Notes: a model not told the origin generated them from the sequence alone. A stretch of DNA of 64,000 nt from a virus (IMGVR_UViG_3300030433_001574:1-64000); one strand, 5' to 3'. Shown: positions 7,064 through 51,900, counted from the stretch's first letter. Numbers and translations are program-made.

Positions 7064-7082
7064 GTTGATATATAAAGCAACA
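7064..7082 (+). promoter_or_regulatory. Conserved TATA promoter motif, copy 5
   Basis: GTTGATATATAAAGCAACA. Confidence 0.85.
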
Positions 7083-7119
7083 GTAGAATACAGAAACACA
7101 AACCAAGAGGAATGATACC

Positions 7120-9513
7120 ATGACACAAACCATGACGATAGAAGAACTGAACAATACGGAGCGCATCAAAGCGATAAAGTCACAGAAGGCGAAGGCACTG
7201 TTCACTCATCGCTCAGCCCATCAGCAGTATGCTGTTCCCAAAGACTGGCAACCACTTAACATGGTGGCTATCCATCTGACTGACACACCACTTCACTTGA
7301 CATCAGCAGGTGAACACATTGGCTACCCATGTTTCTTGAGGACTTGCCCTGAGACTCCTCGACATGGTGTCATCGAATCTGTTCGTTGTAACGATGAAGA
7401 GTCACTTGTCTCTGACTTCAAGCGCCTCGCTCAAATCATGAAGGAGGCTGACCCCAATGGTTGTATGCTTCTCATGCCATTCATTGATGCTTCATGCTCG
7501 TCAGTCATGGCTCTCTCTCATCCTGAAGTGGATGAGCATGGTGTGACCGTGATGACCACTGACCCTAAGACTGGGCTTGACACACCAGTTATGTTTCAAG
7601 GTTACAACATCATGGGTGTTGGTCACGATGGTGTCACTGCTGGTCACGGCTTCAACCTTGCATTCCCTCTCCGTGTTGATGAGTATAACAAGGACAACAT
7701 GATTCTCAACTCACTCTCTTACTCTCCTACTCGTCACGAGTTGGAGTTCGTCTTCAAGAACACCGATGACAAACGTGACCGTGGTGTCATGAACTTACCT
7801 CTCATGACTCACAACCTCACACAGATTCGTGGTGCTCCTTCTCACACTCCTGTCTTCCCTCCACCTGAAGGTGTCGATACCATTGGTATGATTGCCGCTG
7901 GCGAGGTTGTCATTCAGGACTTCATCATCATGAGTGGTCTTGAGGAAGTGGCTTGGCTTGAAGAGAACATCACGCCTGAGAAACTACCCGATGGCTTCAT
8001 GGTCGTTGAGCCTACTGGCTCTCGTCTCTCTCACATCTATGCTCACTGTCGTGGTGTCGGTGTTGCTTATGCTATCACCCCTGCTGATACCATCAACAAG
8101 GGTGACCGTTGGGTCGAGGCCGCACCCGGCTGGGTTGTCTTGGACAACGACAACAAGTTCGTGCCTAAGCCTTACCGACCCGATGCCTACCTTGCTGACT
8201 TCTCTCGTGGCCTCAAGGACGGCAACCTCTATTGGCGCAAGCAACAAGGTTGGTTCTCCACCTTCTTCCACCAGTGGGTCAGTCTCCCATACAGCAAGCC
8301 ACAAGATGTTGCATACCTTGCTGGTATGTTCTGTGCTTGGCTACCCAAAGCCATGCTCGCTCTTGGTCTTGGTGAGATGCGCCATGCTCGTAGCCTCAAG
8401 AAGAATGCTAACGCTGAACTGTTCGCTACCATGACTGCTTGTATTGGCAGTGATGTGTGGAAGAAAATCACCAACACTCCTCACCTTGACTCCACTCGTG
8501 GACACTACTACGCCGCTGTTGGACACATCGAAGTAGACTGGGGTGACTGTGCAAAGATGCTTCGCTTCTTGAACAAGCACTTCCAAAAGGGATGGTCGTC
8601 ATCATACGGTGGCCCGAAGTGGGGCGCTTCTATGTTGCAGGGCGCTGAGGTATGTGACGCTCTACAAACATTCACTGCTGAGCCTAACGAAGAAACATTG
8701 GGCGAACTCATCGTCAAGGTGAACATGGCTGAGAATGCAGTTCACAACAATGGTTCTCTGTTCAACAAGTGGTTGAGCAAGTTCGCATTCGACGCTGGCA
8801 CTGCTGGCTTCAACCCACGTCGAGACATGGACAGCATGGCCTCCGTCTTTGAGATGGCTCGTGAGTTCCTCGATGATGGTCTTGCTAATGTTCGTGCTGG
8901 CTTTGAGTCAGCCTCTCCTCCTGAGAATACATGGAGTGACATTCTCGACTATGTTGAGAAGAAGACCCCAGCCTATTGGCGTAAGACTCCTATGGCTTCA
9001 AGCAAGAATGTTCACGAGGCTCTACGCAAAGTGATGGAGATACTACCAGTTGGTTGGCGACATGGTGACAAGGGTAGCCACAACAATCCTTTGAACAAGG
9101 ACTTCATCATGTGTGGTGTATCAACTTGCACCACTTGTGCTACACACTTGCAGTGGGCTGCCAACAACCCTGCTGAGGTTTCACACTCACAAGTCGCTGA
9201 ACTCAAGACACTGTTCGATGAGCACAGCGCTTCTCTCATGATTGCTCCTCCACCTGTTGATGTGTGGCTCACTGGTTCTCAAGGTGAGACTCGTGTAAGT
9301 GTGAAGGAACAGATTCTTTCCATCAAAGCGAAAGAGTTCTTCCCTACAGCGAAGGAGTTCGTTACCTTGTATGAGGCCATCGACCCTTCTGACCCTGACA
9401 CTCCTGAGATGATGTTGATTCTCAACAAGTATCTCGCTAAGCAAGGTGATGGCCTTGAGGACTTCCTCACTGCTATGACTGGAGAAACAGAAACAAAGGA
9501 TGTGAAAGAATGA
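7120..9513 (+). CDS. PPDK/PEP-synthase-like dikinase (ATP-grasp + phospho-His swivel) fused to an uncharacterised C-terminal domain
   Basis: YPCFLRTCP..RHGVIES, LLMPFIDASCSSVM, ELEF, LTQIRG (ATP-grasp-like); VVEPTGSRLSHIYAHCRGVGVA resembles the PEP-utiliser mobile-domain motif GGxTSHxAIxxRxxGIP (His305). Confidence 0.7.
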   Translation: MTQTMTIEELNNTERIKAIKSQKAKALFTHRSAHQQYAVPKDWQPLNMVAIHLTDTPLHLTSAGEHIGYPCFLRTCPETPRHGVIESVRCNDEESLVSDFKRLAQIMKEADPNGCMLLMPFIDASCSSVMALSHPEVDEHGVTVMTTDPKTGLDTPVMFQGYNIMGVGHDGVTAGHGFNLAFPLRVDEYNKDNMILNSLSYSPTRHELEFVFKNTDDKRDRGVMNLPLMTHNLTQIRGAPSHTPVFPPPEGVDTIGMIAAGEVVIQDFIIMSGLEEVAWLEENITPEKLPDGFMVVEPTGSRLSHIYAHCRGVGVAYAITPADTINKGDRWVEAAPGWVVLDNDNKFVPKPYRPDAYLADFSRGLKDGNLYWRKQQGWFSTFFHQWVSLPYSKPQDVAYLAGMFCAWLPKAMLALGLGEMRHARSLKKNANAELFATMTACIGSDVWKKITNTPHLDSTRGHYYAAVGHIEVDWGDCAKMLRFLNKHFQKGWSSSYGGPKWGASMLQGAEVCDALQTFTAEPNEETLGELIVKVNMAENAVHNNGSLFNKWLSKFAFDAGTAGFNPRRDMDSMASVFEMAREFLDDGLANVRAGFESASPPENTWSDILDYVEKKTPAYWRKTPMASSKNVHEALRKVMEILPVGWRHGDKGSHNNPLNKDFIMCGVSTCTTCATHLQWAANNPAEVSHSQVAELKTLFDEHSASLMIAPPPVDVWLTGSQGETRVSVKEQILSIKAKEFFPTAKEFVTLYEAIDPSDPDTPEMMLILNKYLAKQGDGLEDFLTAMTGETETKDVKE

Positions 9514-10793
9514 ATTGGATGCAAGGATATGGAAGTAAAGCAGGTTGTCACACTGGTAACCCAGTAGTGTTTGAGATTGATGGTGTAAGTATACACGCTG
9601 GTGGTCACAGTCGTAACGGTGGGTGGCATCGTATGTCACCGCTACCTGACCTCGCCATCGGCCCAGCACAAGTGATGGACAATCCTCGTGCTACGGTTGT
9701 GCCTGATGGTTGGTCATGTCAAGGCTACATTGGTGGTGATACTCCACAAATTATCAGCATCGACTGGCCTGACTTCAGCATACCTCAAGATGTTCACCGT
9801 GAGTTTTGGTTGGCGCTTGTTGCTGACATCAAAGCCAATGGCATCAAGACTGTATCGACGCAGTGCGTTGGTGGTCATGGTCGGACTGGTGTGCAGTTGT
9901 GTATTCTTGGCTACCTCATGGGTGACCCTACTTGTCTCAAGCAACCCGACGCCGCTTCACTTATCGAGCATGTCCGTGACATCTATTGTCACCATGCTGT
10001 CGAGGGCAAGTCTCAGCAGACCTACGTTGCTGAGGTTCTACAGATACCTGAAGGCAAGTCACTCTTCAAGTCGTTCAAGAAGAAGAACAACTTCTCGTTC
10101 ACTGATACATCTGACTACCCCATGAAGAATGGTAAGAAGAAGGAGGACAAGGACAACTACATGCCGAAGTCTACCTACTGGGTTGAGGATGAAGATGACT
10201 ACGACGATGGCGATGGCTTCCCGACCACATGGCAACTGCATTCCTGTGGTTTGTGTGGCACACCTGAGTGGGTGCATCTCGATGACCCAGTGCCTGAGCA
10301 GTGTAGTAACTGCGGAGCACCTGAGATGATGCTATCCACTGATGCGCTGTATGATATGTCAGGCATCTGTCCTAAGTGTGACAACACTGTGTCTCACTTT
10401 GGTATGCATGATGACGGACACTGCATTGTCTGTGCGGCTGAAGAGGCTGGCATCAAGACTCGTGACGGTATGGTTCAGTGCAAGAAGTCGAAGAAGTTCT
10501 ACTTGCCTGAGTTCATGAACGTCGAGACATGGGTGTCTCGTGATGCTGAGCGCACTGCTCGTATCAAGAAAGAGGAACAGACCAAGCGAGCCAAAGACAA
10601 GAAGGCTAAGGGCAAAGGCAAGGGCAAAGGCAAGAAAGGTAAGGACTACCCTGCGAAGAAAAAGAAACAACTCAACAATAAAGAACTGAAGCGCAAGCAA
10701 GAGGAGGCTCGCTTACGAATCACACAAAGGAGTCTTGATGACTACTTAGAAGACCGTGGGTTTGACTTCGATGGGATGGAAGACTTCATCTGA
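9510..10793 (+). CDS. Cys-based PTP/dual-specificity phosphatase with Zn knuckles, Lys-rich tail and PIP-like box
   Basis: IDWPDF (WPD loop), QCVGGHGRTG (CX5R, Cys119), VEGKSQ (Q-loop-like); several CxxC; QRSLDDYL near C-terminus. Confidence 0.85.
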   Translation: MNWMQGYGSKAGCHTGNPVVFEIDGVSIHAGGHSRNGGWHRMSPLPDLAIGPAQVMDNPRATVVPDGWSCQGYIGGDTPQIISIDWPDFSIPQDVHREFWLALVADIKANGIKTVSTQCVGGHGRTGVQLCILGYLMGDPTCLKQPDAASLIEHVRDIYCHHAVEGKSQQTYVAEVLQIPEGKSLFKSFKKKNNFSFTDTSDYPMKNGKKKEDKDNYMPKSTYWVEDEDDYDDGDGFPTTWQLHSCGLCGTPEWVHLDDPVPEQCSNCGAPEMMLSTDALYDMSGICPKCDNTVSHFGMHDDGHCIVCAAEEAGIKTRDGMVQCKKSKKFYLPEFMNVETWVSRDAERTARIKKEEQTKRAKDKKAKGKGKGKGKKGKDYPAKKKKQLNNKELKRKQEEARLRITQRSLDDYLEDRGFDFDGMEDFI

Positions 10794-10795
10794 TT

Positions 10796-10814
10796 GTTGA
10801 TATATAAAGGAACA
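10796..10814 (+). promoter_or_regulatory. Conserved TATA promoter motif, copy 6
   Basis: GTTGATATATAAAGGAACA, 34 nt before ATG 10830. Confidence 0.85.
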
Positions 10815-10829
10815 TTAGAAGGTGATAAC

Positions 10830-11246
10830 ATGACAAACGATTTTGGACAACCGAGACTACAAGTAAGAACGCAATTTGATACCAACCGCATTCACATTCA
10901 AGGTGTGGGTGAACCTACGGTCAATCGTAAGTATGGTATTGCACTGGAACTACGAGCACCACCTGAACTGACAGAGTGGTTAAGTGAACAAGAACCTACA
11001 CTGGCAAGCCCAGCAAGTGGGTCAGTTCTCTATGCACCACTGGAAGTTATCTCGTATGTGGAGCATGAAGGCACAGTGCAACTACTCATCAAAGGCACAG
11101 AGTTGAACCACCCAAGTGGGGCTATGCTCGATGTCAAGGATGACTCAACAGCAGTGGACACACTCATTACATTCGTGAAGAACACATCGTCAGGTCTTGT
11201 GATTGAGAGTGGCGATGTCTACTCAACTGGCGAAGAGGAGGAATGA
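10830..11246 (+). CDS. Hypothetical protein
   Basis: ORF after promoter. Confidence 0.75.
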   Translation: MTNDFGQPRLQVRTQFDTNRIHIQGVGEPTVNRKYGIALELRAPPELTEWLSEQEPTLASPASGSVLYAPLEVISYVEHEGTVQLLIKGTELNHPSGAMLDVKDDSTAVDTLITFVKNTSSGLVIESGDVYSTGEEEE

Positions 11247-27426: not shown

Positions 27427-28179
27427 ATGACGAAACTAAGCATAAACAGAAAACAGTTGTTGGGCTTCCTATCGGAGTTCGGCAAGGCAGAGGACTTGCG
27501 AATACACTTCGATGACAAATCCATGACAGCATCAGTTGCTTTCATCTCCCACTACATAACGAAGACAAGAGAAGTAGACGGAGAGGTGAAAGAGAATGGT
27601 AACCTTGACATCACTGAACTGGTCAAGGTTCGTCAGTTCCTCAAGGCGGCGAAGGATGATGTCGTGAACATTTCACAGACAGGCTCAGCCAAGACACTGA
27701 ACATCACATGCGGGTCATCCAAGATTTCAATGCCTACGTCTTCAACAATCGTCAGTGCGGCTAAGGCTTCACTGTTTGAGAAGTTGATTGAGGAGGCTGA
27801 AGCCAGCGAGTGGACAAAGTTTCACTCGTGCGACCTGAGCGTATCAGGGGTTATCACACTGGATGAGTTGGCTACTGTATCGAAGATGCGAGGCATTCTC
27901 AACAGCAGTCCTATCTTCAAGATTACAGCCAACCCCAGTGAGAATGAGTTCCTCATATCATCGGGCAAGAGGCACGAAACCAAGTTGTTCACTACGCTTG
28001 AGTTGCGTGATTCTACTGGCCCAGTCACTGGTAGCGTGAGTTCTACATACGGCTCGTGGTTGATGGACAGCATCGCTTTACTGGGTGGTGGCGAGGCCAC
28101 CATACACATAGGCGAAGCGACTATCATCGCTCTTGAGAAAGATGATGACCTACTTGTTATCGTAGACCAACGAGCGTGA
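27427..28179 (+). CDS. Sliding clamp (PCNA-like)
   Basis: 250 aa, alpha/beta pattern, located between the RFC operon and polB; no strong motif. Confidence 0.6.
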   Translation: MTKLSINRKQLLGFLSEFGKAEDLRIHFDDKSMTASVAFISHYITKTREVDGEVKENGNLDITELVKVRQFLKAAKDDVVNISQTGSAKTLNITCGSSKISMPTSSTIVSAAKASLFEKLIEEAEASEWTKFHSCDLSVSGVITLDELATVSKMRGILNSSPIFKITANPSENEFLISSGKRHETKLFTTLELRDSTGPVTGSVSSTYGSWLMDSIALLGGGEATIHIGEATIIALEKDDDLLVIVDQRA

Positions 28180-36474: not shown

Positions 36475-37092
36475 ATGAGTATGAGCGATGTAATGGCACT
36501 TGATATTGAAACTGGTAACTTCTCTTGGGAGATAGGTGGTTGGGACAAGCACAGTTTGTTTGAGCCTACAGTCGTCGCCACATGGGACGGCAACGATGGT
36601 CACGTCTTTGCCAAAGAAGACATTGAGATGGCTAACGCCACAGTGCATGACCTACACCCTCGCACGTTAGGTGACCACTTACAGAAGCACATCGACGGTG
36701 GTGGCAAGATTCTTGGTCACAACATTCGCAAGTTCGATTTACCAGTGCTAAACGCCGCACTGGACTGCTGGACAGCAGGTGAACTGATTGGTAAGAGCGA
36801 GAGTATCATTGATACCAAGATGTTGATTGATAAAGCAGCATTGAGTGTGGGTAAGGTTCACACGACGCTTGACACTCTTGTTCGCTCTACTCTCGATTCA
36901 TCGAAGAGTATGCAAAGTAGCGATGCGCCAACAGCATGGCGTGAAGGTAAATTCCTTGAGGTAGCCGACTACTGCCTCAAAGACTGCCAATTGACATACG
37001 ACCTCTACATGTATGGTCGTGACAATGGTATTGTAAAGAGCCGAAGTATGGACGACGGCTCTATAGTTGAAATTGAGGTAGATTGGATATGA
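36475..37092 (+). CDS. DEDD(y) 3'-5' exonuclease / RNase H-like protein
   Basis: LDIET, GHNIRKFDLPVL, YCLKD. Confidence 0.85.
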   Translation: MSMSDVMALDIETGNFSWEIGGWDKHSLFEPTVVATWDGNDGHVFAKEDIEMANATVHDLHPRTLGDHLQKHIDGGGKILGHNIRKFDLPVLNAALDCWTAGELIGKSESIIDTKMLIDKAALSVGKVHTTLDTLVRSTLDSSKSMQSSDAPTAWREGKFLEVADYCLKDCQLTYDLYMYGRDNGIVKSRSMDDGSIVEIEVDWI

Positions 37093-38600
37093 CGGATAAC
37101 AATGCAACACAGAGGCTAAACATTGAAGCAGTCAAGCGTATCGCTGAAACTGTAAGAACGACACTTGGGCCATTGGGTATGGACAAGATGATGGTGGATG
37201 GTGGTGGTAACGTCATCGTGACCAACGATGGTGCTACCATTCTACGAGAAGTAGACACTGCTCACCCTGCCGCCAAGATGGTGGTAGAAGTATCGAAGAT
37301 GCAAGAAGCAAACGCATACGATGGCACTACGAGCACAGTCGTTCTTGCGAGCCAATTGCTTGCTAACTCAGAGGGTCTATTCAGTAAGGGCTTACACCCT
37401 AACGTGATTATCAAGGGCTACTCAACAGCACGAAACATGGCTGTTGAGTGCCTGAGTGAGATGAGTATTATCTCTACACCATCGGATGAGTTACTCTTCG
37501 ATATAGCAAAGACTGCGATTACTGGTAAGTCCCTTGAAGCATCTGAAGAGAAGGTTGCTAAATTGTGCGTTGAGACTATCAAGACAATAGGAAACGCTCG
37601 TGACGTGAAAACGCTCGCTGTTCCCGGTGGCTCTCTTGCTGACTCATGGCTTTACAACGGTGTAGTGCTTGACAAAGACTTCATCGGTGGTGGTGATGAG
37701 TTCCGTAACTGGGACAACGAAGATGGTGTAGAGATACTGCTTCTCAATGGCGGTCTGACAGAAGGCAAAGAGAGCGCAAACGTATCTGTTCAGGTATCTG
37801 ATGCAAACTCCTACAGCCAAGTCCAAGCGATGGGTCGAGACAAACTGCTTGAAGCGGCTAAGGCCGTGGTCAATTGTGGTGCTGGAGTCGTTGTTTGTAG
37901 AGACTCCGTTCATGATACTGCGATTGCATATCTACGCAAGCAAGGTATCTCTGTCGTGCAACGTGTGCCTGAGAGCACAATGCGTAGACTGTCAAATGAG
38001 TTGATGAACACTCCAATCCACATGACTCCTGAGCCATCATCAACAACAGGCATAGGTCACATTGACCGTGTTATTCACAACGATGTCCCGTATCTGTATG
38101 TCAATTCATTAGCAAAGGAGTGCATGACCACACACAGAGAATCCACACTGATACTGAAGGGTGCTACACAATCTACTCTCGATGAGATTCAACGAGGATT
38201 TGACGACGCATTGGGTGTTGTGTCACTGGTCAAGAACGGCGACTCCATACGCTTCGGTGGTGGCTCTACATACGTCGCCATCGCTGCTCACTTGCGTGCT
38301 AACGCTTCTGAGGTTGGTGGACGTGCTCAGATGGCGATTGAAGCCTTTGCTGATGCACTTGAAGCCATCCCTGCTACCATCGCTGAGAACGCAGGTTATG
38401 ACCCACTCGATACAGTCTTGGCTATGCGACACAAACTTCCTGAGTTCTATGGCCCTGACGTAGAAAATGGAGGCGTGCGTAGCATGGCGGGTATATATGA
38501 ACCAACATCGCTTATTCGCAGTGCTATCGACGGGGCAACAGAAGTCTCATGTGCCATCCTACGCATTGATGATGTCATCGGGCGTAGAGGTGCTGAGTGA
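37089..38600 (+). CDS. ths: Group II chaperonin (thermosome subunit)
   Basis: RTTLGPLGMDKM, TNDGATIL, HPAAK, DGTTST, GLHP, LAENAG-like IAENAG, ILRIDD. Confidence 0.95.
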   Translation: MTDNNATQRLNIEAVKRIAETVRTTLGPLGMDKMMVDGGGNVIVTNDGATILREVDTAHPAAKMVVEVSKMQEANAYDGTTSTVVLASQLLANSEGLFSKGLHPNVIIKGYSTARNMAVECLSEMSIISTPSDELLFDIAKTAITGKSLEASEEKVAKLCVETIKTIGNARDVKTLAVPGGSLADSWLYNGVVLDKDFIGGGDEFRNWDNEDGVEILLLNGGLTEGKESANVSVQVSDANSYSQVQAMGRDKLLEAAKAVVNCGAGVVVCRDSVHDTAIAYLRKQGISVVQRVPESTMRRLSNELMNTPIHMTPEPSSTTGIGHIDRVIHNDVPYLYVNSLAKECMTTHRESTLILKGATQSTLDEIQRGFDDALGVVSLVKNGDSIRFGGGSTYVAIAAHLRANASEVGGRAQMAIEAFADALEAIPATIAENAGYDPLDTVLAMRHKLPEFYGPDVENGGVRSMAGIYEPTSLIRSAIDGATEVSCAILRIDDVIGRRGAE

Positions 38601-41505: not shown

Positions 41506-42933
41506 TCACTCACCTCTTTCTGTAAATCTTGCAGTTTTGCTACCGCCTATGACTTCTTTATCACCGCTTCTACCTACGACACCTCTACCCATACCTCGTC
41601 CTATGATGAAACCATCGCCTGAAACACCGTGTCCAACAACTTCTGTTATGACAACTGAGACAATCTCAATGTCACCAAACAGAGCCATGTTCTTCTCAAG
41701 AACCTGTTCAATAGTATCGTCTTGCTCACCAGTGTTCTTTGTGCCTTCAAGAATGCCTTGCAGCACACCTTCGATGCCACCTTCTACGCTCAAGAATACA
41801 AGGTCAGCGATGTTCTGAGATAATCTGTGTCTTACCTCGACCAAGATTTTTCTTTGTCCGTCATACTCGATAATCATACCCGGCCTCAAATCCCAACTGT
41901 TAGGGTGACCAGCGCTTGTGAGATTACCAAGCATAACCGCATTGGCCTTCAATATGTTACGACCAATCTCTCTTGCTTGCTCGTTGCTTCGCACAGTAAA
42001 GTCACCGACAACCTGTGGTTCTTCTAACACTTCACCAGCCCGACCTGACTGCTTCTCTGAGTTGTTTACCTCAGCAAAGGCAGTATCATTTACAGCCGTT
42101 GGTAGACCCTCTACGATGACCCTGTTCGATATGTTCTCAATTGGGTTATTGACAGCAGGGCCAGTGCGAGCGTTGTGGTCGATAAATCGACTCTTCTCTT
42201 CAAACTGGAACGGAACGTAAAGCAAGTTACCAAACCTGTCAAAGTGGATGACTCGACCATCATGGCGACTAATGAACCGTAGAGCATCAACAAGCGTGAT
42301 ACCGTGAAAGTCTACGCCGACGAAACTGTTGCTGTGTAGCCTTCTATCGACTTGGGAGTTGCTCGGACTCAATGGTAGTGCGATGTTCACGGACGTAAGA
42401 GAATCAGCGATGTCTCTACTAATGCGTATAGCCAAGTCTGTTGTTCTTAAGCCAGCATCAATTGGTTGTCCAAAGTGTGCTTGCCTCTGAGAAAAGCCAA
42501 CGTCATCGAGTGTCTTACCCTTCATGTTTCTTAGAGCGAATGTAGTTCCTGTTCCGCTATTGAGAACTGATGATGTTCGCAGTCGCTCACTTTCAGCACC
42601 TTTACCATAAAGCAACACTGGTTTGTTTTTATCACTGTCACTGGTAATGCTTGAACCCAAGTAGACCACAGAACCTTCGTAGTTTCGCCCATGCGTGCCT
42701 GTGTGCTTTAGGATAACAGAATCCTGTAGTTCTGTCATGGTGTAAGTATGTGGTGTAGAGACAGCATAGGTGGTGGTTTTGCGTTGTCTCACCGTGACCT
42801 TCTTCTCCAAGTTCTTCTGTGGCGTATACTCACCAAGATGAAGGGCGTTGTCCACGAACTTTGGTTTACGCACTGCTTTCATCACAACATCCGTGTCGGC
42901 TGTTGCTCGTTTGTCTTTGAGTAAACCCATCAT
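41506..42933 (-). CDS. Putative tail hub/baseplate protein
   Basis: FDRFGNLLY..NRVIVEG..DLRPG pattern and position. Confidence 0.55.
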   Translation of the reverse strand: MMGLLKDKRATADTDVVMKAVRKPKFVDNALHLGEYTPQKNLEKKVTVRQRKTTTYAVSTPHTYTMTELQDSVILKHTGTHGRNYEGSVVYLGSSITSDSDKNKPVLLYGKGAESERLRTSSVLNSGTGTTFALRNMKGKTLDDVGFSQRQAHFGQPIDAGLRTTDLAIRISRDIADSLTSVNIALPLSPSNSQVDRRLHSNSFVGVDFHGITLVDALRFISRHDGRVIHFDRFGNLLYVPFQFEEKSRFIDHNARTGPAVNNPIENISNRVIVEGLPTAVNDTAFAEVNNSEKQSGRAGEVLEEPQVVGDFTVRSNEQAREIGRNILKANAVMLGNLTSAGHPNSWDLRPGMIIEYDGQRKILVEVRHRLSQNIADLVFLSVEGGIEGVLQGILEGTKNTGEQDDTIEQVLEKNMALFGDIEIVSVVITEVVGHGVSGDGFIIGRGMGRGVVGRSGDKEVIGGSKTARFTERGE

Positions 42934-45900
42934 GCATCACCACTGTGGTCTGATGTATTGAACGATACATCCTCTTTATGTCCCTTGCTGTGCAACGATT
43001 GACTGAATCTTGGTTTGACGGTGTAATCTTTACTCTCACCAGTTCTTCTTGGAGCATCGCTCTTGAAGTGCTGTAGTGTGTTTTCACTGATAATGAGTCG
43101 AGTAACAGTGCTCTTCAGTGTTGTCTTGTCAAAGCCAGTAACCTCTGTTCCCGGTAACTTTGGCCCTTTCGATACTGGCACAGTGTCACTACTGCTCTCA
43201 ACGAGATACACTGGTTGGTATGGCGCTGATGTGTCAGGGTTGGTAGCACGCATGTATGACCCACTGCTTGCTCTACCGTTTGGAGTCGAGTAGGTAAACA
43301 GCCCATACTTACCACCAGCAGTGGCTGTAAACGCAGTGCTACCGTTTTGCTTACTACCGCTATGCAAAGCCAATGCTGGTCTAAATACAGCGATATGCTG
43401 GTTGTCAAGGAGTCGTATAGGTCGTAGCATAAACTGCACTGCATCGTCAGTCATGTTTGTCTGACTGGCTACAGAACTCGTTGTTTGGTATGGGTTGCTT
43501 GTCTTTGTGCCACTCATGCCACTTCGTCCCCAGCCTGTATCATCGAATGGGCTGGCGAAACTGCGAGCCTCCAAGATGTAAGTTCCACCCATAGGCTTGA
43601 AGTTGCTTGTGTGGCTGAATCGCATCACACCACCATGAGGCTGAGCAGCGAAGGACAAGGATGTCAGGTCGTAGTCACCAAGCGTCTGAGAACCTGACTG
43701 CATACCACCATGCAACACAACTCTCTGACCTACACCTCTGTTGGTGTGTAGGCTGTGTGCTTCTGAGTTGATGGCTACCATGTTGGCGTTGCTACCAGTC
43801 AAGGATTCTATGGTGTCTCCGTCAATACCAATTCGTGGTGAAGAGCGAGAAACAGCATCCTTGTGAACCGATGTTCCGCTGATGGATTCTACCTTGTCGC
43901 TAACCGTCGCTTCAGGTTTAAGCAAACCATCTTCATCAACTTCCAATCGAGCGCTGATACCTCTGACGATTTCACTTGGTTGCAGTGCGTCGTTTCTTGG
44001 CCGAATCAAACCTTGACCGAATGTAGGCTCAGCAGTGTTGCTTGATAACACCACACCTGAGTTTTGGTATACTGCGCTGAGTTCAACCAATCTGTCTTCA
44101 TTGAACTGTGTTGGGAATCGCACACCACGTCCGTTACCCATGTCTCCTACTCGTAGCGCATTGGTAGGAGCAAACACATCGACCAACGTGGTATCTGTGT
44201 TATTGTTACCAGTGTTCTTTCTACCACCAAAGCGAGGTATTGTAGCCGTTGGAGATGACAGCACGTTGCCGTTGCTGAAATCAACGATACCCTTCAGATT
44301 GAAGATAGGCTTGCCATTGTTCCAAACTCGCTCAAACGGCGTGCGGTTGTTGGTTCTGTCATACTCGTATGCGTCTCCAGCATCCCAAGACGGATTGATA
44401 CCAAAACTACGCACTGGGAAGCGACGGACATCCTCACCACGAGTGTTACCCCACCAGTCAATGAGATAATACGATACAGCATCTTTGTAATACAACAATC
44501 CCATACCAGCAGAATCACCCCACCAATCTCGTATGACTGTGCTGGAGTTTCGCAAAGTGCGTAGAGCACAACCAAATCCTCTTGTCATTCGTCGTCCATC
44601 GCTGTAGCGCACTTGCCATTCGTATTTGTCAGCATTCAACATACCAGCAGCCGTTGTGCTACGCTCAAGAATACCAACATAGGTAGTTGGTAGGTCAGTG
44701 TTGCTTTGTGTGCTGTCTCCACCAGCGTAAAGCCACCCGTTACTTGATATACTCTCATACTCAATTAGTGGCCCTGCTTTGTAGCCAACAGCAAGATTGC
44801 TTGCACCTGAGTGAGTGGCTTGCTCTTGGAATGCTCGCATACCATAGTGACCCCACTGAGGTCTGTTCCAAGCCTGTCGTAGTCCAAAGCGGTAACCAAA
44901 TGGATATGTGCGTAGAGCGCTGAGTGAGCCAGTGCTTACACCGTTAGCAACTGCATAACTACCGTCATCGTCATCGTCTTCCCAATGAATCCCACCATTG
45001 TGTGCGTAACTTTGCGGTAAGTGCCACGCCGCAGCGGCAGCAGCATAGCCATCTAATCGGCTAACGAGTGGGCCACCACGACTACCACACGGCCAGTAGT
45101 TTGAAAGCATAAACGTGCCACTTTGAGATGATAAACCACTGATAGCATTGATGCCTGAGCCACTCAAGACTTCGCCATCACCGTCAAGATAAACCTTATC
45201 GCCCGACACAAGATTGCTCTCAAATATCTTGGTGTAGAGCGTAATGTCAGCACCGCTTGTGCCGTTTACTCTACCAAGAACTCGACCCTTAGCGAACAAA
45301 ACATCTCCGTTACTTACGCCAGTAACCGTATCGGTCATTGTAATAACGGAGACAGTTGTAGTTGCAACCGAACTGACAGTTCCAGTAAGTGGCTTAGGAG
45401 GCACTGGTGTTTTCATTCGTAACGTAAGTGGGCCATGACTCGCTGCGTAATTGACATCTTGATAGTGGATTGTCTCAAAGTGCTGTGGCATACTGTTGTA
45501 TGCGGCGTTATTGACGGCTCTGTCTGAGGTATGATTGACACCGTTTGTAATCCAAGTCCGACTGGCATCTGAATAGAATGTGTGAGGCCGACCCAAGTTA
45601 GGACTCCAAGCACACAGATATGCGTCGGTTAGGAAAAGACTGTTTGTATCTCTTGTTCCTGTAAGCAACTGACCGAGATTCTTGGTCAATACGCTTTCGC
45701 TGTCGTTGTTGAAAATGTCGTTTACAGACTTTGTAGAATACGGTTTACTCAACGTCAGTTTTGTGCCATCGGCTATGGTAATCCCTGTTGGTAAATGGAA
45801 CACATCAGGCTCGTTCATCGTCGCTGAACTATGACTCAGACCTTGCCGAGTTGTGTAACTAAACGATACAGTTTTGCCCGTAGAAGGGTCAATGTATTGC

Positions 45901-48900
45901 AGTTTTTGTCCGTAATACGGTTTTTCAGGGAAGAGCGAAGCGTCATCAACTTGTATGGCAGTCGCTGAAGAATGTGCTCCGACGACTTTACATGTAGGAG
46001 CGAGGCTTACGTTCTCCATAATCTTGGAGTAGATGTCAGGATAGATGCTTGGGTAACCAGCCAATGTCAATTGGGCAGCGACTGCGCCGTAACTCGCTCG
46101 ACAGAATTGGTAGTAGTTGTCAATACGATACAGAGCAAGATGTCTGAAACCAACAGCCGATGCGTCAGACGGAGTGCCTTGATGCATGATACTCCACCAC
46201 GGTATGTTCGTGGTAAAGCCCGGTGTAGCGTCTTTGAACTCTATCTCAGGAGTTGTTGGGTGATACGGATGACCTCGCCGTGTAAACGAAGGACTCTCCG
46301 ACCCTTGAACTCCCAATGGGTTATAAAGCAACATCGGTGGGATGTTAGCCAACTGACTACCGTGGTCAGGGTCGTGGTCAAGGATGACCTCGTTCAAGAA
46401 TATCTCACAGCCTCTTACGTCAGCCAGTGTAGCCTCAGCAAGAATAAGCGTAACACCGCCGATGTTGGCAGAGTTTGTCAGACTTGAGTGTCGCTCTTCG
46501 TCGTATTTGATACCGATAACAAGATTGACTTGCTGACTGGTAAGACCTGATAGTTCTGTGCCAGCAGTTGGTAAACCTGTAGCATCAGCATTGTTGCGAT
46601 GGAATCCAGTGACTTGTTGTGAGCGTAGGTTTGGCTGAATGACGATTTGATATGCACCAACTTCAGCAGGGTCAGGGAAGTGATTAGCCTGAGTATAGTT
46701 ACCACCAGCCTCAAGGACAATTGAGTGTCCACCAGCCTTGTTCATGTCACCAGCAGTGCCTTTTGATGCGAGTATACCGTAGCCGTCATACTTGATTTTC
46801 GTCTCAAACATCAGCGTAAATGCACCACCGTGAATGTCGCTTGGGCCTGACGGATTGGCTGTGAGCGAACCTACTCTGAGCGCTGGGTTGAGTGGGAATA
46901 TCCTGTCTGTAACTGCGGTAGGAATAGAGGTCTGATTGTTCGTTGTGCCGTCTACCTCGACCAAGTTGTCAGCCAGTGTCGTATAATCTTCGTCAGGTAG
47001 TGACGCTAATTTGTCGCTGTTCGCTTTCTCGTATAGTCCTTGATAGGCTGGGTGCGCCCAGTGACCGGGCATCATTGGCATCGTTGCATTGACGAAGTGA
47101 TGACCCATACGAGGAATAGGCATTGGAGTAAGTTGTGGCTTACTGTATCGTGAGTGTATAGTTGTTTGAGCATCGCCGTCAAAGTAGAGAGTGTGAGCCA
47201 TGTCAGGGCTGTTACCGCTTACCTCAGCATGGTCACGCAGTCGGCGTGCAGCGAATATACGAGCACTACCAGCAGGGACATAGTATGACGGTGTGATAGT
47301 CAATGCACCAACAGCAAAATTATCAGCCATAAATTGAGTAAAGTCAATATCACCAACAAGGTCGTTAAACACATCTGAACTTATTGATTTATACGAAGCA
47401 ATAACACTCTCACCTGCTGCGTTGCTAATTCGTATGAATCGTCGGTTATCGGCTACTTCTTGTGTTCCAAAGCCAGTAGAGAATATGTTTTCGTTGATAG
47501 CAGCACTCGCTGTAATTGAGGTTGAAGTGTAGGAATCTACGGTAAGGGCTTGATTAACCACACCAGCGGTGTGAGTGTAGGTCGTCGGGAACTTTTCAGT
47601 GTGGCTGTGACCCATCTTTGTAATGTGGAAGTATAGTGCTCTGTCCTGTTGCTCGTAGGAACTGCGTAGTGTATTGTTACCAGTCGCTGCTACCCAGCCG
47701 TCACGAGTAGACTCAGGGAAGTTCTCATCTTGTGAGATGTGCTCCCATCCTACTTCGTTCATGGTTGGCCCTTTTCTTGGAGATTTGACCACGTTGTCAA
47801 ACAGATGACCAATATGACTTGCACCCAAGTCAGGGTGAATCATACCACCGTCACCGAATGTTTCTGTTTGGTATGCCTGTATTGGGTCGAAACCACTGCG
47901 AACAAGGATGTTACCGGGAATGGATTCAGGGTCAGGTAATTGAATCTCAAAGTTTGGAGGTATACCACTGTTTGCAGGGACTGGTTGTAGACCGCTTGCC
48001 AATCTTGTCGATGCAGGTTTATACGCTCTGATGACAATACCCAACGGTGAACCACCCTCAAGCGTATGCACCTGTCCTGTGTCGTCTACAACAGTGATGT
48101 CCTCAAACTGTATCTCTTCGTTTGGTATCTCAAGCACACCACCAAGAGCAATAGGATGTTCCTTTGCTAACGTAGGGTGGGCTATCTCTTGTGCTTGTAG
48201 AACTGGCATCATAGCCGAGTTTGTTGTCTCAAAAGAGAATCGAATGTTACCATACAACTTCTCGCCCATTGTGTGAGCGTTGCCACCTACTACACGAGTA
48301 ATCCACGGCACTGCACCTAAGCCACGAGCATTGGAGGCTGGCATGGTGACTGTTCCACCGTCCATTCGCTTCCATACAATATGCTCTGTGCTGAAGTTCT
48401 TGTGAGGGCTACGCTTCAATACATCGTAAGCATTGACATCACCAGCCCAAAAGATACCTGATTGAACATCATGAGAAGTTGATACCATATTATTCGATGG
48501 AGTGTTGGTTGATGTGATAAAATCAGTAGCAAGGTTACGCTCACCGATGTTTAATTCGTGATTTACAATTCCTACGTTTTTGTCAATATCGAAGAACAAA
48601 TCACCAGTTTCAGCACGACATGGCTCGGCATTTGACAACGAAGAGTCAGCGGAAAGAGAAGGGTGTAAGTAAACTTGAGCATTGAATGGAGCGCCGTCTA
48701 AGACAGTGCTCGTGGTGTAATCGCTAATGGTAGGAGGTGCTGTGTTGTCAGCAATCAAAGCCTCTACGTTTGGCCCAGCGTTAGCGGGTGCTACAAAGCG
48801 GTCACTGTGGTGAAATCGCTCGTCCCATTGGGTTGTGCCTCCAGCCAGCAAGTAGTCGCCTGTAGAGGTATGGTTGTCTCTGTCTTTCCTTGCCACCAAA

Positions 48901-51900
48901 CTCAACTCACCTTCGTGGGCTACAACGAGCAAAGCACGAGAGTAAGTGCCTTGAGCGTGAATCAACTCTTTCTGTATCTCAGGCATATCTCGCATAACTG
49001 GTGGGTTGTTGAACTGAGCGCCATCAGTCCAGCCCATAATGTATGTGCCAAATCCTACTGTATCATCAGTGCTGTAAGATACAGAGTCAGCCTCGGTATC
49101 GCCGTCACTTGGGAAGTTGCTGAGACTACCACCCGGTATGTCTGTCGGTGGCATACTTTCGGGAGAGTTAGGTAGAGGGGTTGTGTGAGGTAGATGACCA
49201 AGCATGTTGGCGCAAGACGAAGAGCCACCGTATGGTGAAAACCCAAGCATAGAATGCCAAGCACCAAGACCAGCCGAGAAACCACCGTCTACTGACAATG
49301 TGTTGAGGTAAGAGTATCGTTCACCATGCCACCCTACTGCTCCGACTGGCTTTGTTCTGTCTATTGCATCAGCGATACCACTGAAATGTGGTGCTCCGAT
49401 ACCGTAGTTTGAGAAACGACTACCTGCTGAGTTATCCACTCCGATGGTTGCGCTCTTTGACCATATCCATATTTTTGTCCCAACAGAAGGCGCAGGGTGT
49501 GGTAATGTTACTCCACTTACGTTTGAGCCGCCACCACTGTTGAACGCTACTGAAGTATTTGCGTAGATACGCCAAGCCTCTCCGTCTTCAAAGGCTTTCA
49601 AACCTGTAACCTTATTGTGTGACAAAAAGAATCGACAACGCAACGGGCTATCTACAGCGCTTCCGTCTCTGTAAAACGCACGACTATGATAAGAAGCCCA
49701 CGCCGATGACTTGACTGAACTACTTACAGACGCTCCATAGTCATGATTGGCTTCTGTTCGCAACCAACCTGATGCTGGCACACGATTTGCAACTGACTCT
49801 TCGTTTCCTGTTGCAGCACCAGTAATCTCAACGTCGATAAAGCAATCACCGTTCTTAAGACTCGCACCACCTGTTGCTGTGTTACCGAGTGTATTGCGGG
49901 TGAATGTAATTGTGACACCAGTGTTTGTAGCATTCGGGGCTGGGTTTATTGTGACAGTGTTTGCTGTTGAGTTAAAGGAAGCAACTACACTGTTGGCTTG
50001 AATACCAGTTCCGCTTACAGATTGACCCGCTTGTATCAAAGCAGGGAACGTCCCAGTGACTGCTATAGCAGCAACACCACTGGTGACGTTTGCAGTAAAC
50101 GTGCTGGTTGCTGTGCCGCTTCTGACCATAGGTGCGACACTTACTGTGTTGTTTGAATAACCATAATCAGTAACATCGCTATTCGCTGTAACTCCGCCTA
50201 CTGTTCCGTTTCCGTAAACGCCGCTTGGTATTGCTTTTGAAATACTTTCTATCCATCCATATCGGTCTTGGCGAGTAGCGTTACCCATTGATGGCATAAA
50301 CGTCCCACCAATAGCCTTGAGAGCACCTTTACCGGGAAACGTATTGATAGCAGCACCCAGCACACAAGCCAACTCTTCTCCGTTCTGACAACGTGTAGCA
50401 TCTACTACGATGTATTCGTGGTCTACGTCGCTTGCTGTCAATGTATCAGTGCTAAAGCCGGGAGAGCCTGAGTTGTCGTTTGAATGTAGCATCTTCGTTG
50501 CCAGCACACCAGCGACTCTGAATGCAGTCTTGTTGATACGACTAACATTTGTGTTCAAACTAATTCTTGTTGCAGCGCCCTGTAGTGGTGGATTCATAGT
50601 GATTTGATTATCCATCCAAGAACCACCGGGATGGTTACCGTTGTCCATATGCCAGCACAAGTCAGCGTTTTTGACCATACCTCCAGCGTAAAACATAGCG
50701 TGTCTACTGGGTTGAGCAACAGCATATGCTTTCGCTACGTCATCTGTAAAGTTAGAAGCAGTGCTGTAGTGGTCAAAGGCGTTAGCGGTAAACGAGTTAC
50801 CGTAGTTTCTACCATTCTCAGGTCGCTCTCGCAAAAACACAGTATCGGGTATACCGAGAGGCGACTCCCAGTTTAGCACTTGTCGGTAATGGAATCGGTG
50901 CTTAGCCAACTGTGTTGCTGCACGCTCAGGCATGTATTCTCCAGTAGAATTTTGAATGTGATTTGGTAAAAAGGCACGACCACCAGCCCCACTTGACATA
51001 TTCGGAACTTTTGACCAAGCGTTACCAGTGCTCACAGCCTCGCCGGGGTGTGGCTCAAACGCATTGTCGGGACTTGCTTTTTCTTGACAGAGAGGGAATG
51101 CTTGACCCGGCCCAAAAATGATGTATGTTGTCTTGTTGTCTACACTGTCACGATGGTCGTTGTATCGTGCGGTTGGGTGTGCAAAGCGCAACACCATAGG
51201 AGACGGCACTTGCATGTGAACCCCAGCGGTATATGGAGCAGCATTGGGGTGTATGTTACTCACACTTTGAGCACCTCTCTTGATGTCAGGAGACAAAATG
51301 TTGTCCTTGTTGTAAACTGGTGGATTGATACTACCACGATGTTGCTTTAACAAAGCAGTTGCTGGGAAGAAAGCCATGATAGCGTTACAGTCAAGTGTAG
51401 AGAATGAAGAAAGAATTTCATTGGCATTTTGAATACCAGCAGAGCCTGTTGGCCCATTAGCATACGGATGTGTGTTGTGCTCTGAGTAATCGTTCTGTGT
51501 CCCGTCATTGATGTCTACCACAGCGCCGCTGAAACCACCACCAAAGAACAGAGGAACGTAATTGTCAGGGCCATCACGAGCGCCAGTAAAGTGAATGATT
51601 GGTAAAGAATGCACGCTACCAAGAGAGCGCTTACCAGCAAACAAATACGCCCTTAAATCAGCGTATTTTTGGACAACAAGTGTCCCGCTTGGGTTTGATG
51701 AAGGCCAGTCTCCGCTTCTCAAATTAGAATCAAGTAATTGGCTAAACGTTTTCTCAGAAACATATCCACCACTATTTACATTCTGACTTTCTGTGACTGC
51801 TGTATGTGTGCCATAACTGATAGGAGTCTTTGTGCCAAAAGAATCTACTCTTGCGTAGTCTTGTGTTTGCCCTTGTTCAACGTGATTAACCGATGCTTCG

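What the first reader, a model, noticed from the sequence alone, without database searches (positions are those of the whole stretch)
7064..10793. Viral dikinase plus CX5R phosphatase unit: candidate phospho-writer/eraser system
Seen: two ATGA-coupled genes lie between promoter copies 5 and 6, so they look like their own transcription unit. Gene 1 has ATP-grasp-like motifs (FLRTCP..HGVIES, MPFIDA.CSSV, ELEF, LTQIRG) and a swivel motif GSRLSH (His305). Where PPDK/PEP synthase has its pyruvate-binding barrel it carries a different ~450-aa domain (GEMRH, YGGPKWG, HNNGSLFNKW). Gene 2 has a WPD loop and CVGGHGR. Knowledge: ATP-grasp plus His-swivel enzymes with swapped substrate domains phosphorylate non-pyruvate targets (rifampin phosphotransferase, glucan water dikinase), and GWD is opposed by the CX5R phosphatase SEX4. 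Inference: the virus encodes a reversible phosphorylation switch on an unknown substrate (protein, nucleotide, DNA or glycan). I know of no characterised viral system of this kind.
Basis: partly seen in the sequence, partly recalled or inferred. Interest (0 to 1): 0.92.

Follow-up and report, generated by a model that had tools for sequence, protein, structure and literature searches.

The report
Viral dikinase with phosphatase partner
Two coupled genes of a marine archaeal virus encode an ATP-driven phosphate-shuttling kinase, whose substrate-binding part has no recognisable fold, and a cysteine phosphatase; the pair recurs in many viruses of archaea and bacteria, and its substrate is unknown.

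Summary
Gene 1 (7120-9513, 797 aa) and gene 2 (9510-10793, 427 aa) overlap by ATGA. They lie between copies 5 and 6 of a 14-nt promoter-like motif.

- **Gene 1 head:** the model superposes on rifampin phosphotransferase (Z 16.3) and PPDK (Z 13.3) across both the ATP-grasp and the phospho-His swivel domain. His305 is kept in 129 of 130 family representatives.
- **Gene 1 C-terminus:** the pyruvate barrel is replaced by an all-helical "HNNG" domain that matches no solved or Atlas structure.
- **Gene 2:** a PTP-fold phosphatase with a WPD Asp88, a C119-X5-R125 loop and a Q-loop.
- **Conservation:** the two genes are adjacent in every informative IMG/VR locus (52).
- **Split form:** in Vibrio, Rhodobacter, Stenotrophomonas and Rhizobium phages the HNNG domain is a separate protein. 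It sits beside a genuine PPDK_N + PEP-utilizers "head" and PTP genes. Papers label that head a PPDK metabolic gene, which is not tenable.

This window therefore holds the fused form of a module that this scan already met in split form on other DNA (e1-2068993).

The substrate is unknown. My preferred guess is a nucleic-acid, nucleotide or sugar hydroxyl handled at the replication fork, and the evidence for it is weak. Novelty: new variant of a known enzyme kind. Interest is high.

The parts
7064..7077 (+). Promoter-like motif GTTGATATATAAAG, copy 5 of 12; TATA-box-like, 56 nt upstream of the gene 1 ATG
   Evidence: 12 copies, all on the + strand, against 0.01 expected. Promoter function is inferred, not shown.
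7120..9513 (+). Gene 1: 797-aa three-domain phosphohistidine dikinase-like protein (P0001)
   Evidence: It has 616 relatives in the representative library. AF2 model: pLDDT 86.8, pTM 0.82.
7141..7848 (+). ATP-grasp nucleotide-binding domain (about aa 8-243), with near-invariant K23, R74, E209, Q235 and R237
   Evidence: VIA Z 11.6 to the RPH ATP-binding domain over model residues 8-241. Foldseek puts PPDK and RPH on top. Residue conservation. ELEF and QxR line up with DIEF and QsR of PPDK-type heads.
7867..8154 (+). Phospho-His swivel domain (about aa 250-345); the His305 codon is at 8032-8034, at the N-terminus of helix 305-313
   Evidence: Two-domain superpositions: RPH 5hv3 Z 16.3 (274 residues, model 8-343) and PPDK 1dik Z 13.3 (model 5-351). 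His305 is kept in 129/130 representatives. hhalign puts GSRLSH on GGRTCH (His421) of E. coli PpsA and on the TSH of phage heads.
8155..9219 (+). All-alpha 'HNNG' acceptor domain (about aa 346-700), with near-invariant H384, E419, R421, R460, W492, G497, G498, N535, H542, N543 and K550, and a CGx3Cx2C knuckle near aa 664-675
   Evidence: Model of aa 345-797: pLDDT 89.4. No structural match. Homologous to stand-alone phage proteins: RcZahn gp10 prob 96%, E 2e-9; profile against profile 96.7%, E 3e-10.
9220..9510 (+). C-terminal tail of gene 1 (aa 701-797): a low-confidence linker followed by helices, conserved only in close relatives
   Evidence: pLDDT below 50 at 703-725. Match ranges.
9510..10793 (+). 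Gene 2: 427-aa phosphatase with a Zn-ribbon and basic tail (P0002); its start overlaps the gene 1 stop (ATGA)
9510..10094 (+). PTP-fold catalytic domain (aa 1-195): WPD with invariant D88, C119-VGGHG-R125 (Cys119 codon at 9864-9866) and Q-loop Q169/Q170
   Evidence: Invariant columns. The profile hits classical PTPs (2pi7, E 3.5e-6), with the WPD, P-loop and Q-loop all aligned. Weak PF00102 hit.
10227..10790 (+). Cys-rich Zn-ribbon region, Lys/Gly-rich tract, and a terminal PIP-box-like QRSLDDYL (10725-10748)
   Evidence: Conserved CxxC pairs and a recurrent C-terminal xxLxx[WYF] motif in the A3 alignment. PCNA binding is inferred only.
10796..10809 (+). Promoter-like motif, copy 6; it closes the two-gene unit and precedes the third gene
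10830..11246 (+). Third, frequently linked gene (138 aa, P0272), with invariant Q11, H22, Q24, R33, Y35, G36, S60, Y68 and N93 and an acidic C-terminus; role unknown
   Evidence: It follows the pair in 40 of about 52 loci. Alignment A5. No Pfam, PHROG or PDB hit. No counterpart in the bacterial-phage modules.

Best explanation
Gene 1 is a divergent PPDK/PEPS/RPH-type dikinase. Proposed steps: (1) the ATP-grasp domain binds ATP; (2) His305 on the swivel domain takes the beta-phosphate, with the gamma-phosphate lost as Pi and AMP released; (3) the domain swings to the C-terminal all-helical HNNG domain; (4) there a pocket lined by invariant His, Arg, Lys, Asn, Glu and Trp residues holds a non-pyruvate acceptor, which becomes phosphorylated. 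Gene 2 is translationally coupled and always adjacent. It is a hydrolytic Cys-phosphatase (Cys119 nucleophile, Arg125, general acid Asp88, Q-loop water activation) that belongs to the same pathway. The module is virus-specific and occurs in two layouts: fused, as here and in small freshwater podoviruses, or split into head, HNNG protein and PTP(s) in bacterial siphoviruses. The fused form works as a Rosetta stone: it marks HNNG as the acceptor domain of the head. Shown: the folds, the conserved residues, the gene linkage and the homology between layouts. Inferred: the chemistry. Preferred guess (about 1 in 4): the two enzymes act on different positions of a nucleic-acid, nucleotide or sugar substrate at the replication fork. 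Examples would be 5'-OH kinase plus 3'-phosphatase end-healing, or a phosphate-position swap, rather than a switch toggling one site.
For: Fold of the head: Foldseek top hits are PPDK 1kbl/1dik (E 8.6e-5, prob 1.0), RPH and PEPS. VIA gives RPH 5hv3 Z 16.3 over 274 residues spanning model 8-343, and PPDK 1dik Z 13.3 spanning 5-351. Both stand above the pure ATP-grasp hits at Z about 11-12. Catalytic motifs are collinear with PPDK-type heads: ELEF/DIEF, QIR/QsR and SH/TSH. Conservation across 130 representatives: H305 129, R74 128, Q235 127, R237 128, E419 129, R421 129, H542/N543/K550 127 each. Phosphatase features. Linkage: the phosphatase gene lies directly downstream of the dikinase gene in all 52 informative IMG/VR loci, down to about 23% identity. 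HNNG and the phosphatase are the two components shared with the PPDK_N + PEP-utilizers modules of bacterial phages. A 569-aa fused homologue with an overlapping DSP gene occurs in 41-kb podoviruses (prob 99.8%, E 1e-28). Virus-restricted: one hit among 185,579 species genomes, and that hit lies on a 30-kb MAG contig carrying 81%-identical dikinase and 71%-identical phosphatase genes, so it looks viral. For the substrate guess: the module sits in replication modules near the DNA polymerase gene in four lineages, and the phosphatase carries Zn ribbons, a Lys-rich tail and a PIP-like C-terminus.
Against: No Pfam, NCBIfam, PHROG or PDB sequence hit for gene 1 or for 48 relatives, so the head assignment rests on predicted structure, weak profile alignments (E 0.02-0.2) and context. 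No activity, ligand or substrate evidence exists. The HNNG domain has no structural relative to borrow a function from. The replication-fork idea rests on gene position and tail motifs only. The basic tail and PIP-like motif are limited to part of the family. No hydroxymethylase or other base-modification gene was seen in the ORFs scanned. DLP3's restriction-resistant DNA is already explained by other genes (PMC13326640).
Confidence: 0.7

Rival explanations
1. A reversible switch: the dikinase phosphorylates a host or viral protein, for example on Tyr, and the phosphatase removes that same phosphate.
For: The phosphatase profile matches classical pTyr phosphatases, including the WPD and Q loops. 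Dikinases that phosphorylate phenolic OH groups exist: HpeHI is cited in PMC12624787, and phenylphosphate synthase is known to me from the literature. The third gene has invariant Tyr35 and Tyr68.
Against: The genes are translationally coupled and so co-expressed, which would make a futile cycle on one site. No protein-directed dikinase is known. The third gene is absent from the bacterial-phage modules. The N-terminal region before the WPD loop is much shorter than in classical PTPs, and a pTyr-recognition loop was not identified.
Confidence: 0.15
2. Polynucleotide end-healing, a functional analogue of T4 Pnkp: the dikinase phosphorylates 5'-OH ends and the PTP removes 3'-phosphates, so that a viral ligase can reseal RNA or DNA cut by host nucleases.
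For: This is the one well-known reason for a phage to couple a kinase to a phosphatase. Ligase genes are present in this virus (PF01068 hit) and in DLP3. The invariant general-acid Asp fits a monoester with an alkoxide leaving group (inference). The phosphatase has nucleic-acid-binding-like tails.
Against: There is no homology to any known polynucleotide kinase or 3'-phosphatase. No ligase is consistently linked to the module. The idea is purely inferential.
Confidence: 0.15
3. A small-molecule pathway: a nucleotide, sugar or cofactor is phosphorylated at one position and dephosphorylated at another. This would feed DNA modification, nucleotide supply or counter-defence.
For: A kinase-then-phosphatase position swap (Araf5P to Araf1,5P to Araf1P) is documented in phage DNA-glycosylation pathways (PMC13326640). 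All known non-pyruvate dikinases act on small molecules or glucans. The HNNG pocket residues are rich in Trp, Tyr, Asn, His and Arg, as in sugar- and nucleotide-binding sites (inference).
Against: No transferase or other pathway enzyme is consistently linked. PTP-fold enzymes rarely act on free metabolites.
Confidence: 0.2
4. An auxiliary metabolic PPDK that interconverts pyruvate and PEP, which is how the phage homologues are annotated in the literature.
For: GenBank and paper annotations of the phage heads. Those heads hit PPDK_N and PEP-utilizers.
Against: No PEP-utilizers_C barrel is found in the phage heads or in gene 1. In gene 1 that position is filled by an unrelated all-helical domain. 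The obligatory PTP partner has no role in PPDK chemistry.
Confidence: 0.03

Closest known systems
Rifampin phosphotransferase (RPH-Lm; PDB 5hv1, 5hv3, 5fbs)
   Same: ATP-grasp plus swivel-His domain serving a helical, non-pyruvate acceptor domain. It gives the best structural match (Z 16.3 over 274 residues).
   Different: The domain order differs: RPH is grasp, acceptor, His, whereas here it is grasp, His, acceptor. The HNNG domain did not match the RPH rifampin-binding domain in any search. There is no Pfam hit. RPH has no phosphatase partner.
Pyruvate phosphate dikinase and PEP synthase (1kbl, 1dik, 2ols; E. coli PpsA)
   Same: The same domain order for head and swivel. The catalytic motifs E..QxR and SH are collinear.
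   Different: There is no PEP/pyruvate TIM barrel. The sequence is too divergent for PPDK_N or PEP-utilizers HMMs.
Split 'PPDK'-PTP-helical protein module of bacterial siphoviruses (Vibrio VH2_2019/Virtus/J26, Rhodobacter RcZahn, Stenotrophomonas DLP3, Rhizobium RHph_Y1_11); earlier scan finding e1-2068993
   Same: The HNNG domain and the GGHGRTG-type phosphatase are homologous (prob 96.7-99%). Both modules sit in replication regions.
   Different: In the phages the head is a recognisable PPDK_N + PEP-utilizers protein, HNNG is a separate 326-478-aa protein, and four of the five modules I inspected (one search lists one PTP in Virtus) have two PTP paralogues. Here head and HNNG are one polypeptide and the head is far more divergent.
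Glucan water dikinase with the SEX4/LSF2 glucan phosphatases
   Same: The logic of a dikinase opposed or followed by a CX5R phosphatase.
   Different: No starch-binding modules. GWD has its His domain before the ATP-grasp. In plants the two genes are neither linked nor viral.
Two-component small-molecule dikinases (HpeHI, phenylphosphate synthase)
   Same: Phosphohistidine dikinases for non-pyruvate hydroxyl acceptors that produce AMP (PMC12624787).
   Different: Their acceptor parts are unrelated. They are catabolic bacterial enzymes with no phosphatase partner.
T4 polynucleotide kinase-phosphatase (Pnkp)
   Same: A phage-encoded coupled kinase and phosphatase acting on different ends of one substrate. 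This is a functional analogy only.
   Different: Pnkp is a P-loop kinase plus a DxDxT phosphatase, so there is no fold relationship.

Membership tests
PEP-utilizing / phosphohistidine dikinase superfamily (PPDK, PEPS, RPH, GWD) | N-terminal ATP-grasp nucleotide-binding domain | tested here: met
   VIA Z 11.6 to the RPH ATP-binding domain. Foldseek prob 1.0 to PPDK. K23, R74, E209, Q235 and R237 are conserved.
PEP-utilizing / phosphohistidine dikinase superfamily (PPDK, PEPS, RPH, GWD) | Swivel domain with the catalytic His at a helix N-terminus | tested here: met
   Two-domain superpositions with Z 16.3 and Z 13.3. His305 starts helix 305-313 and is kept in 129/130 representatives. It aligns to PpsA His421.
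PEP-utilizing / phosphohistidine dikinase superfamily (PPDK, PEPS, RPH, GWD) | Matches to the PPDK_N (PF01326) and PEP-utilizers (PF00391) models | tested here: not met
   No Pfam hit at E up to 1 for P0001, and none for 48 relatives.
PEP-utilizing / phosphohistidine dikinase superfamily (PPDK, PEPS, RPH, GWD) | ATP converted to AMP + Pi with beta-phosphate transfer through phospho-His | not testable with these tools
   Needs biochemistry.
PPDK / PEP synthase proper | C-terminal PEP/pyruvate-binding TIM barrel (PEP-utilizers_C) | tested here: not met
   The C-terminal 450 aa are all-helical. There is no Pfam hit and no barrel match.
Rifampin phosphotransferase | Rifampin-binding domain placed between the ATP-grasp and a C-terminal His domain | tested here: inconclusive
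   The domain order differs. No RPH match for the HNNG model. A weak Atlas feature lead to Rph_4th (0.85) was not backed by the structure search.
Cys-based PTP superfamily (gene 2) | CX5R phosphate-binding loop with a nucleophilic Cys | tested here: met
   C119-VGGHG-R125 is invariant in 30 relatives and aligns to the PTP P-loop.
Cys-based PTP superfamily (gene 2) | General-acid Asp (WPD loop) and a Q-loop | tested here: met
   W86 is nearly invariant (90% or more); P87, D88 and Q169 are invariant, and Q170 is nearly invariant (90% or more). They align to the WPD and QTxxQ segments of classical PTPs.
Cys-based PTP superfamily (gene 2) | Pfam Y_phosphatase score above the gathering threshold | tested here: not met
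   15.7 bits against a cut-off of 20.9 for P0002. Some relatives do carry PF00102, and the family profile hits PTP structures at E 3.5e-6.
Split phage head / HNNG / PTP module (e1-2068993) | Co-occurrence of a swivel-His head, an HNNG helical unit and a GGHGRTG-type PTP | tested here: met
GWD/SEX4 system | Carbohydrate-binding modules, and a His domain N-terminal to the ATP-grasp | tested here: not met
   No CBM hit. The domain order is grasp then His.

The most novel reading that the evidence does not exclude
The HNNG domain is a previously unseen fold that presents a macromolecular acceptor to phospho-His305. The acceptor would be a DNA or RNA end, a DNA base or sugar, or a replisome-protein tyrosine. 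That would make this the first dikinase to act on nucleic acid or protein. A clamp-tethered PTP would work beside it at viral replication forks, in viruses of both archaea and bacteria.
Probability: 0.25. Interest if true: 0.9.

Novelty: new variant of a known kind. Interest (0 to 1): 0.75.

Why it matters
Phosphohistidine dikinases are a small enzyme class, and each new acceptor domain so far has meant new chemistry: pyruvate, starch, rifampin, phenols. This one has a conserved acceptor domain with no recognisable fold and an obligatory phosphatase partner. It has at least 616 cluster representatives, and nearly all of those placed so far come from viruses, from marine archaeal magroviruses to cultured Vibrio and Stenotrophomonas phages. 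The fused form seen here identifies which "hypothetical protein" of the phage modules is the substrate-binding part. It also shows that the published "PPDK auxiliary metabolic gene" label is probably wrong, and so is the "thymidylate synthase" label on the second phosphatase. Because cultured phages carry the module, the unknown substrate can be sought by experiment now.

Tried and rejected
- **Sequence libraries:** Pfam, NCBIfam, PHROG and PDB searches of gene 1 and its relatives found nothing.
- **Phage collection:** blastn and tblastn of gene 1 against it found nothing.
- **HNNG domain structure:** Foldseek PDB gave a best E of 0.2. VIA-wide gave a best Z of 6.5, to designed or GPCR-like helix bundles, which is below the noise level for helical models. 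The Atlas gave TM of at most 0.27. No family can be named from these.
- **Rph_4th lead:** the Atlas feature score of 0.85 was not supported by the structure search.
- **Third gene:** it has no relative in the phage modules and no library hit.
- **DNA-hypermodification idea:** DLP3 DNA resists 15 restriction enzymes (PMC7326821). That is already explained by an arabinosyl-5-hydroxycytosine pathway encoded elsewhere in the genome (PMC13326640), so it is no evidence for this module. No Thymidylat_synt hit was found in the ORFs scanned.
- **His-to-Cys phosphorelay:** a PTS-like relay was considered and set aside, because the phosphatase keeps a Q-loop typical of hydrolytic PTPs.
- **RNA libraries:** contigs from metatranscriptomic runs of two studies cover parts of both genes, and one 727-nt contig bridges the junction in a variant strain. 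DNA carry-over cannot be excluded, so expression is not shown.


Full report
**Context**

The window is the first 64 kb of a 107,203-bp IMG/VR virus record rated complete. It encodes a thermosome-type chaperonin, family-B DNA polymerase, an SNF2 helicase, a Cas4-like nuclease and a C5 methylase. Elsewhere the record has an SU10-type capsid protein, portal, terminase and an HMGL-like gene. This gene content fits the magroviruses of marine group II archaea. Group A magroviruses are reported to carry a pyruvate-carboxyltransferase-like gene (PMC11706807). Host and family are inferred from gene content only.

**Observation**

Gene 1 (7120-9513, 797 aa) and gene 2 (9510-10793, 427 aa) overlap in ATGA. 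A 14-nt motif, GTTGATATATAAAG, occurs 12 times, only on the + strand and only across the replication module. Chance would give 0.01 copies. Copies 5 and 6 bracket the two genes.

**Gene 1, head**

No sequence library recognises the protein. It does have 616 relatives among 1.8 billion cluster representatives, and none of the 48 relatives scanned has a relevant Pfam domain.

An AlphaFold model built on 42 relatives is confident (pLDDT 86.8, pTM 0.82).
- Foldseek ranks PPDK (1kbl, 1dik), rifampin phosphotransferase and PEP synthase first, followed by generic ATP-grasp enzymes.
- VIA-align gives Z 11.6 to the RPH ATP-binding domain for residues 8-241.
- On the second look, two-domain superpositions stand above the one-domain hits. 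RPH 5hv3 gives Z 16.3 with 274 residues and model 8-343 onto chain 3-866. PPDK 1dik gives Z 13.3 with model 5-351 onto 2-516.

So both the grasp and the swivel domain are there, modelled in the docked-on-ATP position.

Profile alignments are weak (E 0.02-0.2) but in register. ELEF aligns with DIEF, QIR with QsR, and GSRLSH305 with the catalytic GGxTSH of E. coli PpsA and of the phage heads. His305 opens helix 305-313 and is kept in 129 of 130 representatives. K23, R74, E209, Q235 and R237 are kept in 120-128.

**Gene 1, C-terminus**

Residues about 346-700 are all-helical (pLDDT 89.4 when folded alone). They carry near-invariant H384, E419, R421, R460, W492, G497, G498, N535, H542, N543 and K550. 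Neither Foldseek, nor an exhaustive VIA search of 48,161 chains, nor the ESM Atlas gives a meaningful match. I call it the HNNG domain after its best-conserved motif.

**Gene 2**

The first 195 residues have an invariant D88 in a WPD loop, an invariant C119-VGGHG-R125-T, and an SQQxY segment. The family profile hits classical protein tyrosine phosphatases (2pi7, E 3.5e-6), with the WPD loop, P-loop and Q-loop all aligned. The general acid and the Q-loop argue for a hydrolytic phosphomonoesterase. They argue against an RNA triphosphatase-type enzyme or a phosphorelay protein; this step is inference from PTP enzymology.

The rest of the protein has paired CxxC ribbons, a Lys/Gly tract and a terminal QRSLDDYL. 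Variants of xxLxx[WYF] recur at the C-termini of many relatives. That pattern resembles archaeal PCNA-interaction motifs, but binding was not tested.

**Linkage**

Of 55 IMG/VR loci with a gene 1 relative, 53 have a tblastn match to the phosphatase domain downstream; one of the other two loci is cut short and the other is only a marginal match. ORF clustering puts a phosphatase ORF directly downstream in 51 of them, and in this window, down to about 23% identity. A third gene (10830-11246) follows in 40 loci. Its product has invariant His, Arg, Tyr, Ser and Asn residues and no known relatives.

Among 185,579 prokaryotic species genomes, only one contig matched. It is a 30-kb piece binned as Parvibaculum that carries near-identical viral genes.

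**Link to bacterial phages**

tblastn with the phosphatase domain found Vibrio, Stenotrophomonas, Rhodobacter and Rhizobium phages. These are the same host groups in which "viral PPDK" has been reported (PMC12038007). In those genomes the gene order is as follows:
- a PPDK_N + PEP-utilizers protein without a barrel domain;
- one to three small genes;
- a PTP;
- a 326-478-aa hypothetical protein;
- a second PTP;
- further on, the DNA polymerase I gene.

The hypothetical protein is homologous to the HNNG domain: prob 96%, E 2e-9, with the ExRH, GYGGxxW and HNNGxxFNK motifs matching, and 96.7% profile against profile. The second PTP is the counterpart of gene 2 (99%, E 3e-18). In DLP3 that protein is annotated "thymidylate synthase", which probably explains the odd label on PHROG 17568. 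A 41-kb freshwater podovirus has a compact 569-aa fused homologue with an overlapping DSP gene (99.8%, E 1e-28).

The window therefore holds the fused version of a three-part module, and the fusion identifies HNNG as the acceptor domain. An earlier agent of this scan described the split form on other DNA (e1-2068993). I reached the phage loci independently through and tested the homology myself.

**Function**

The architecture predicts ATP + X-OH + H2O giving AMP + Pi + X-O-P, through phospho-His305. X is not pyruvate. What X is remains open.

Three observations point weakly towards the replication fork:
- The module sits in replication regions near the polymerase gene in four virus lineages.
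- The phosphatase has nucleic-acid-binding-like and clamp-binding-like tails.
- The conserved pocket residues are of the kind that bind sugars, nucleotides or phosphates.

A strictly co-expressed writer and eraser acting on one site would waste ATP. Coupled kinase-phosphatase pairs in phages usually act on different positions, as in Pnkp end-healing or the Araf5P to Araf1,5P to Araf1P route (PMC13326640).

A hint that DLP3 DNA is modified is fully explained by other genes, so I dropped it. No paper found here assigns a function beyond "PPDK AMG".

**Expression**

Contigs from metatranscriptomic libraries of two studies cover parts of both genes, and one bridges the junction. This does not exclude DNA carry-over.

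**Verdict**

The structural reading is supported. The "reversible switch" reading and the substrate are untested. This is a new variant of the dikinase kind, with an acceptor domain that matches no known fold and an obligatory PTP partner, and it is widespread in viruses of two domains.

Noticed in passing
window 42930-60860 (-): A single 5976-aa ORF lies in the minus-strand (structural) half of the genome. A further 1834-aa ORF lies beyond the window at genome 73229-78733. Neither was analysed.
   Followed up: no
window 878-34813 (+): Twelve copies of GTTGATATATAAAG, all on the + strand and all upstream of genes in the replication module, against 0.01 expected. It is probably the virus's early or middle promoter (a TATA-like box). 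None occurs on the minus-strand module.
   Followed up: partly
window 10830-11246 (+): A 138-aa protein family with invariant Q11, H22, Q24, R33, Y35, G36, S60, Y68 and N93 and an acidic C-terminus. It follows the dikinase-phosphatase pair in 40 loci. It has no known relatives and is absent from the bacterial-phage modules.
   Followed up: partly
L064:8415-9191 (Stenotrophomonas phage DLP3 gp141); PHROG 17568: The protein annotated 'thymidylate synthase' is a GGHGRTG-type PTP-fold phosphatase homologous to gene 2 (hhalign prob 97.8%, E 1e-12). The PHROG family label is probably a propagated error.
   Followed up: yes
L058 (NZQM01000111.1, MAG 'Parvibaculum sp. EAC60'): A 30-kb contig binned into an alphaproteobacterial MAG carries an 81%-identical dikinase gene, and the 71%-identical phosphatase P0155 carries this MAG's Parvibaculum label with a longest contig of the same length. 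It looks like a mis-binned magrovirus-like contig.
   Followed up: partly
L066:5155-7627 (Manatee Spring podoviruses, 41 kb): A compact fused dikinase homologue (569 aa) overlaps a 262-aa DSP gene in small freshwater podoviruses of unknown host. It is the smallest full version of the module seen.
   Followed up: partly
window 10725-10748 and the C-termini of gene 2 relatives: A PIP-box-like QxxLxxYL motif sits at or near the C-terminus. Similar xxLxx[WYF] endings occur in many relatives. The virus encodes its own clamp-like gene (27427-28179).
   Followed up: partly
window 37083-38600 (+): A virus-encoded thermosome-type group II chaperonin (NCBIfam thermosome_alpha, E 2.5e-120, below the equivalog cut-off).
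   Followed up: no
L062:3716-4198 (Vibrio phage VH2_2019 gp26): A CsrA-like domain protein lies between the PPDK-like head and the first PTP of the Vibrio phage module.
   Followed up: no
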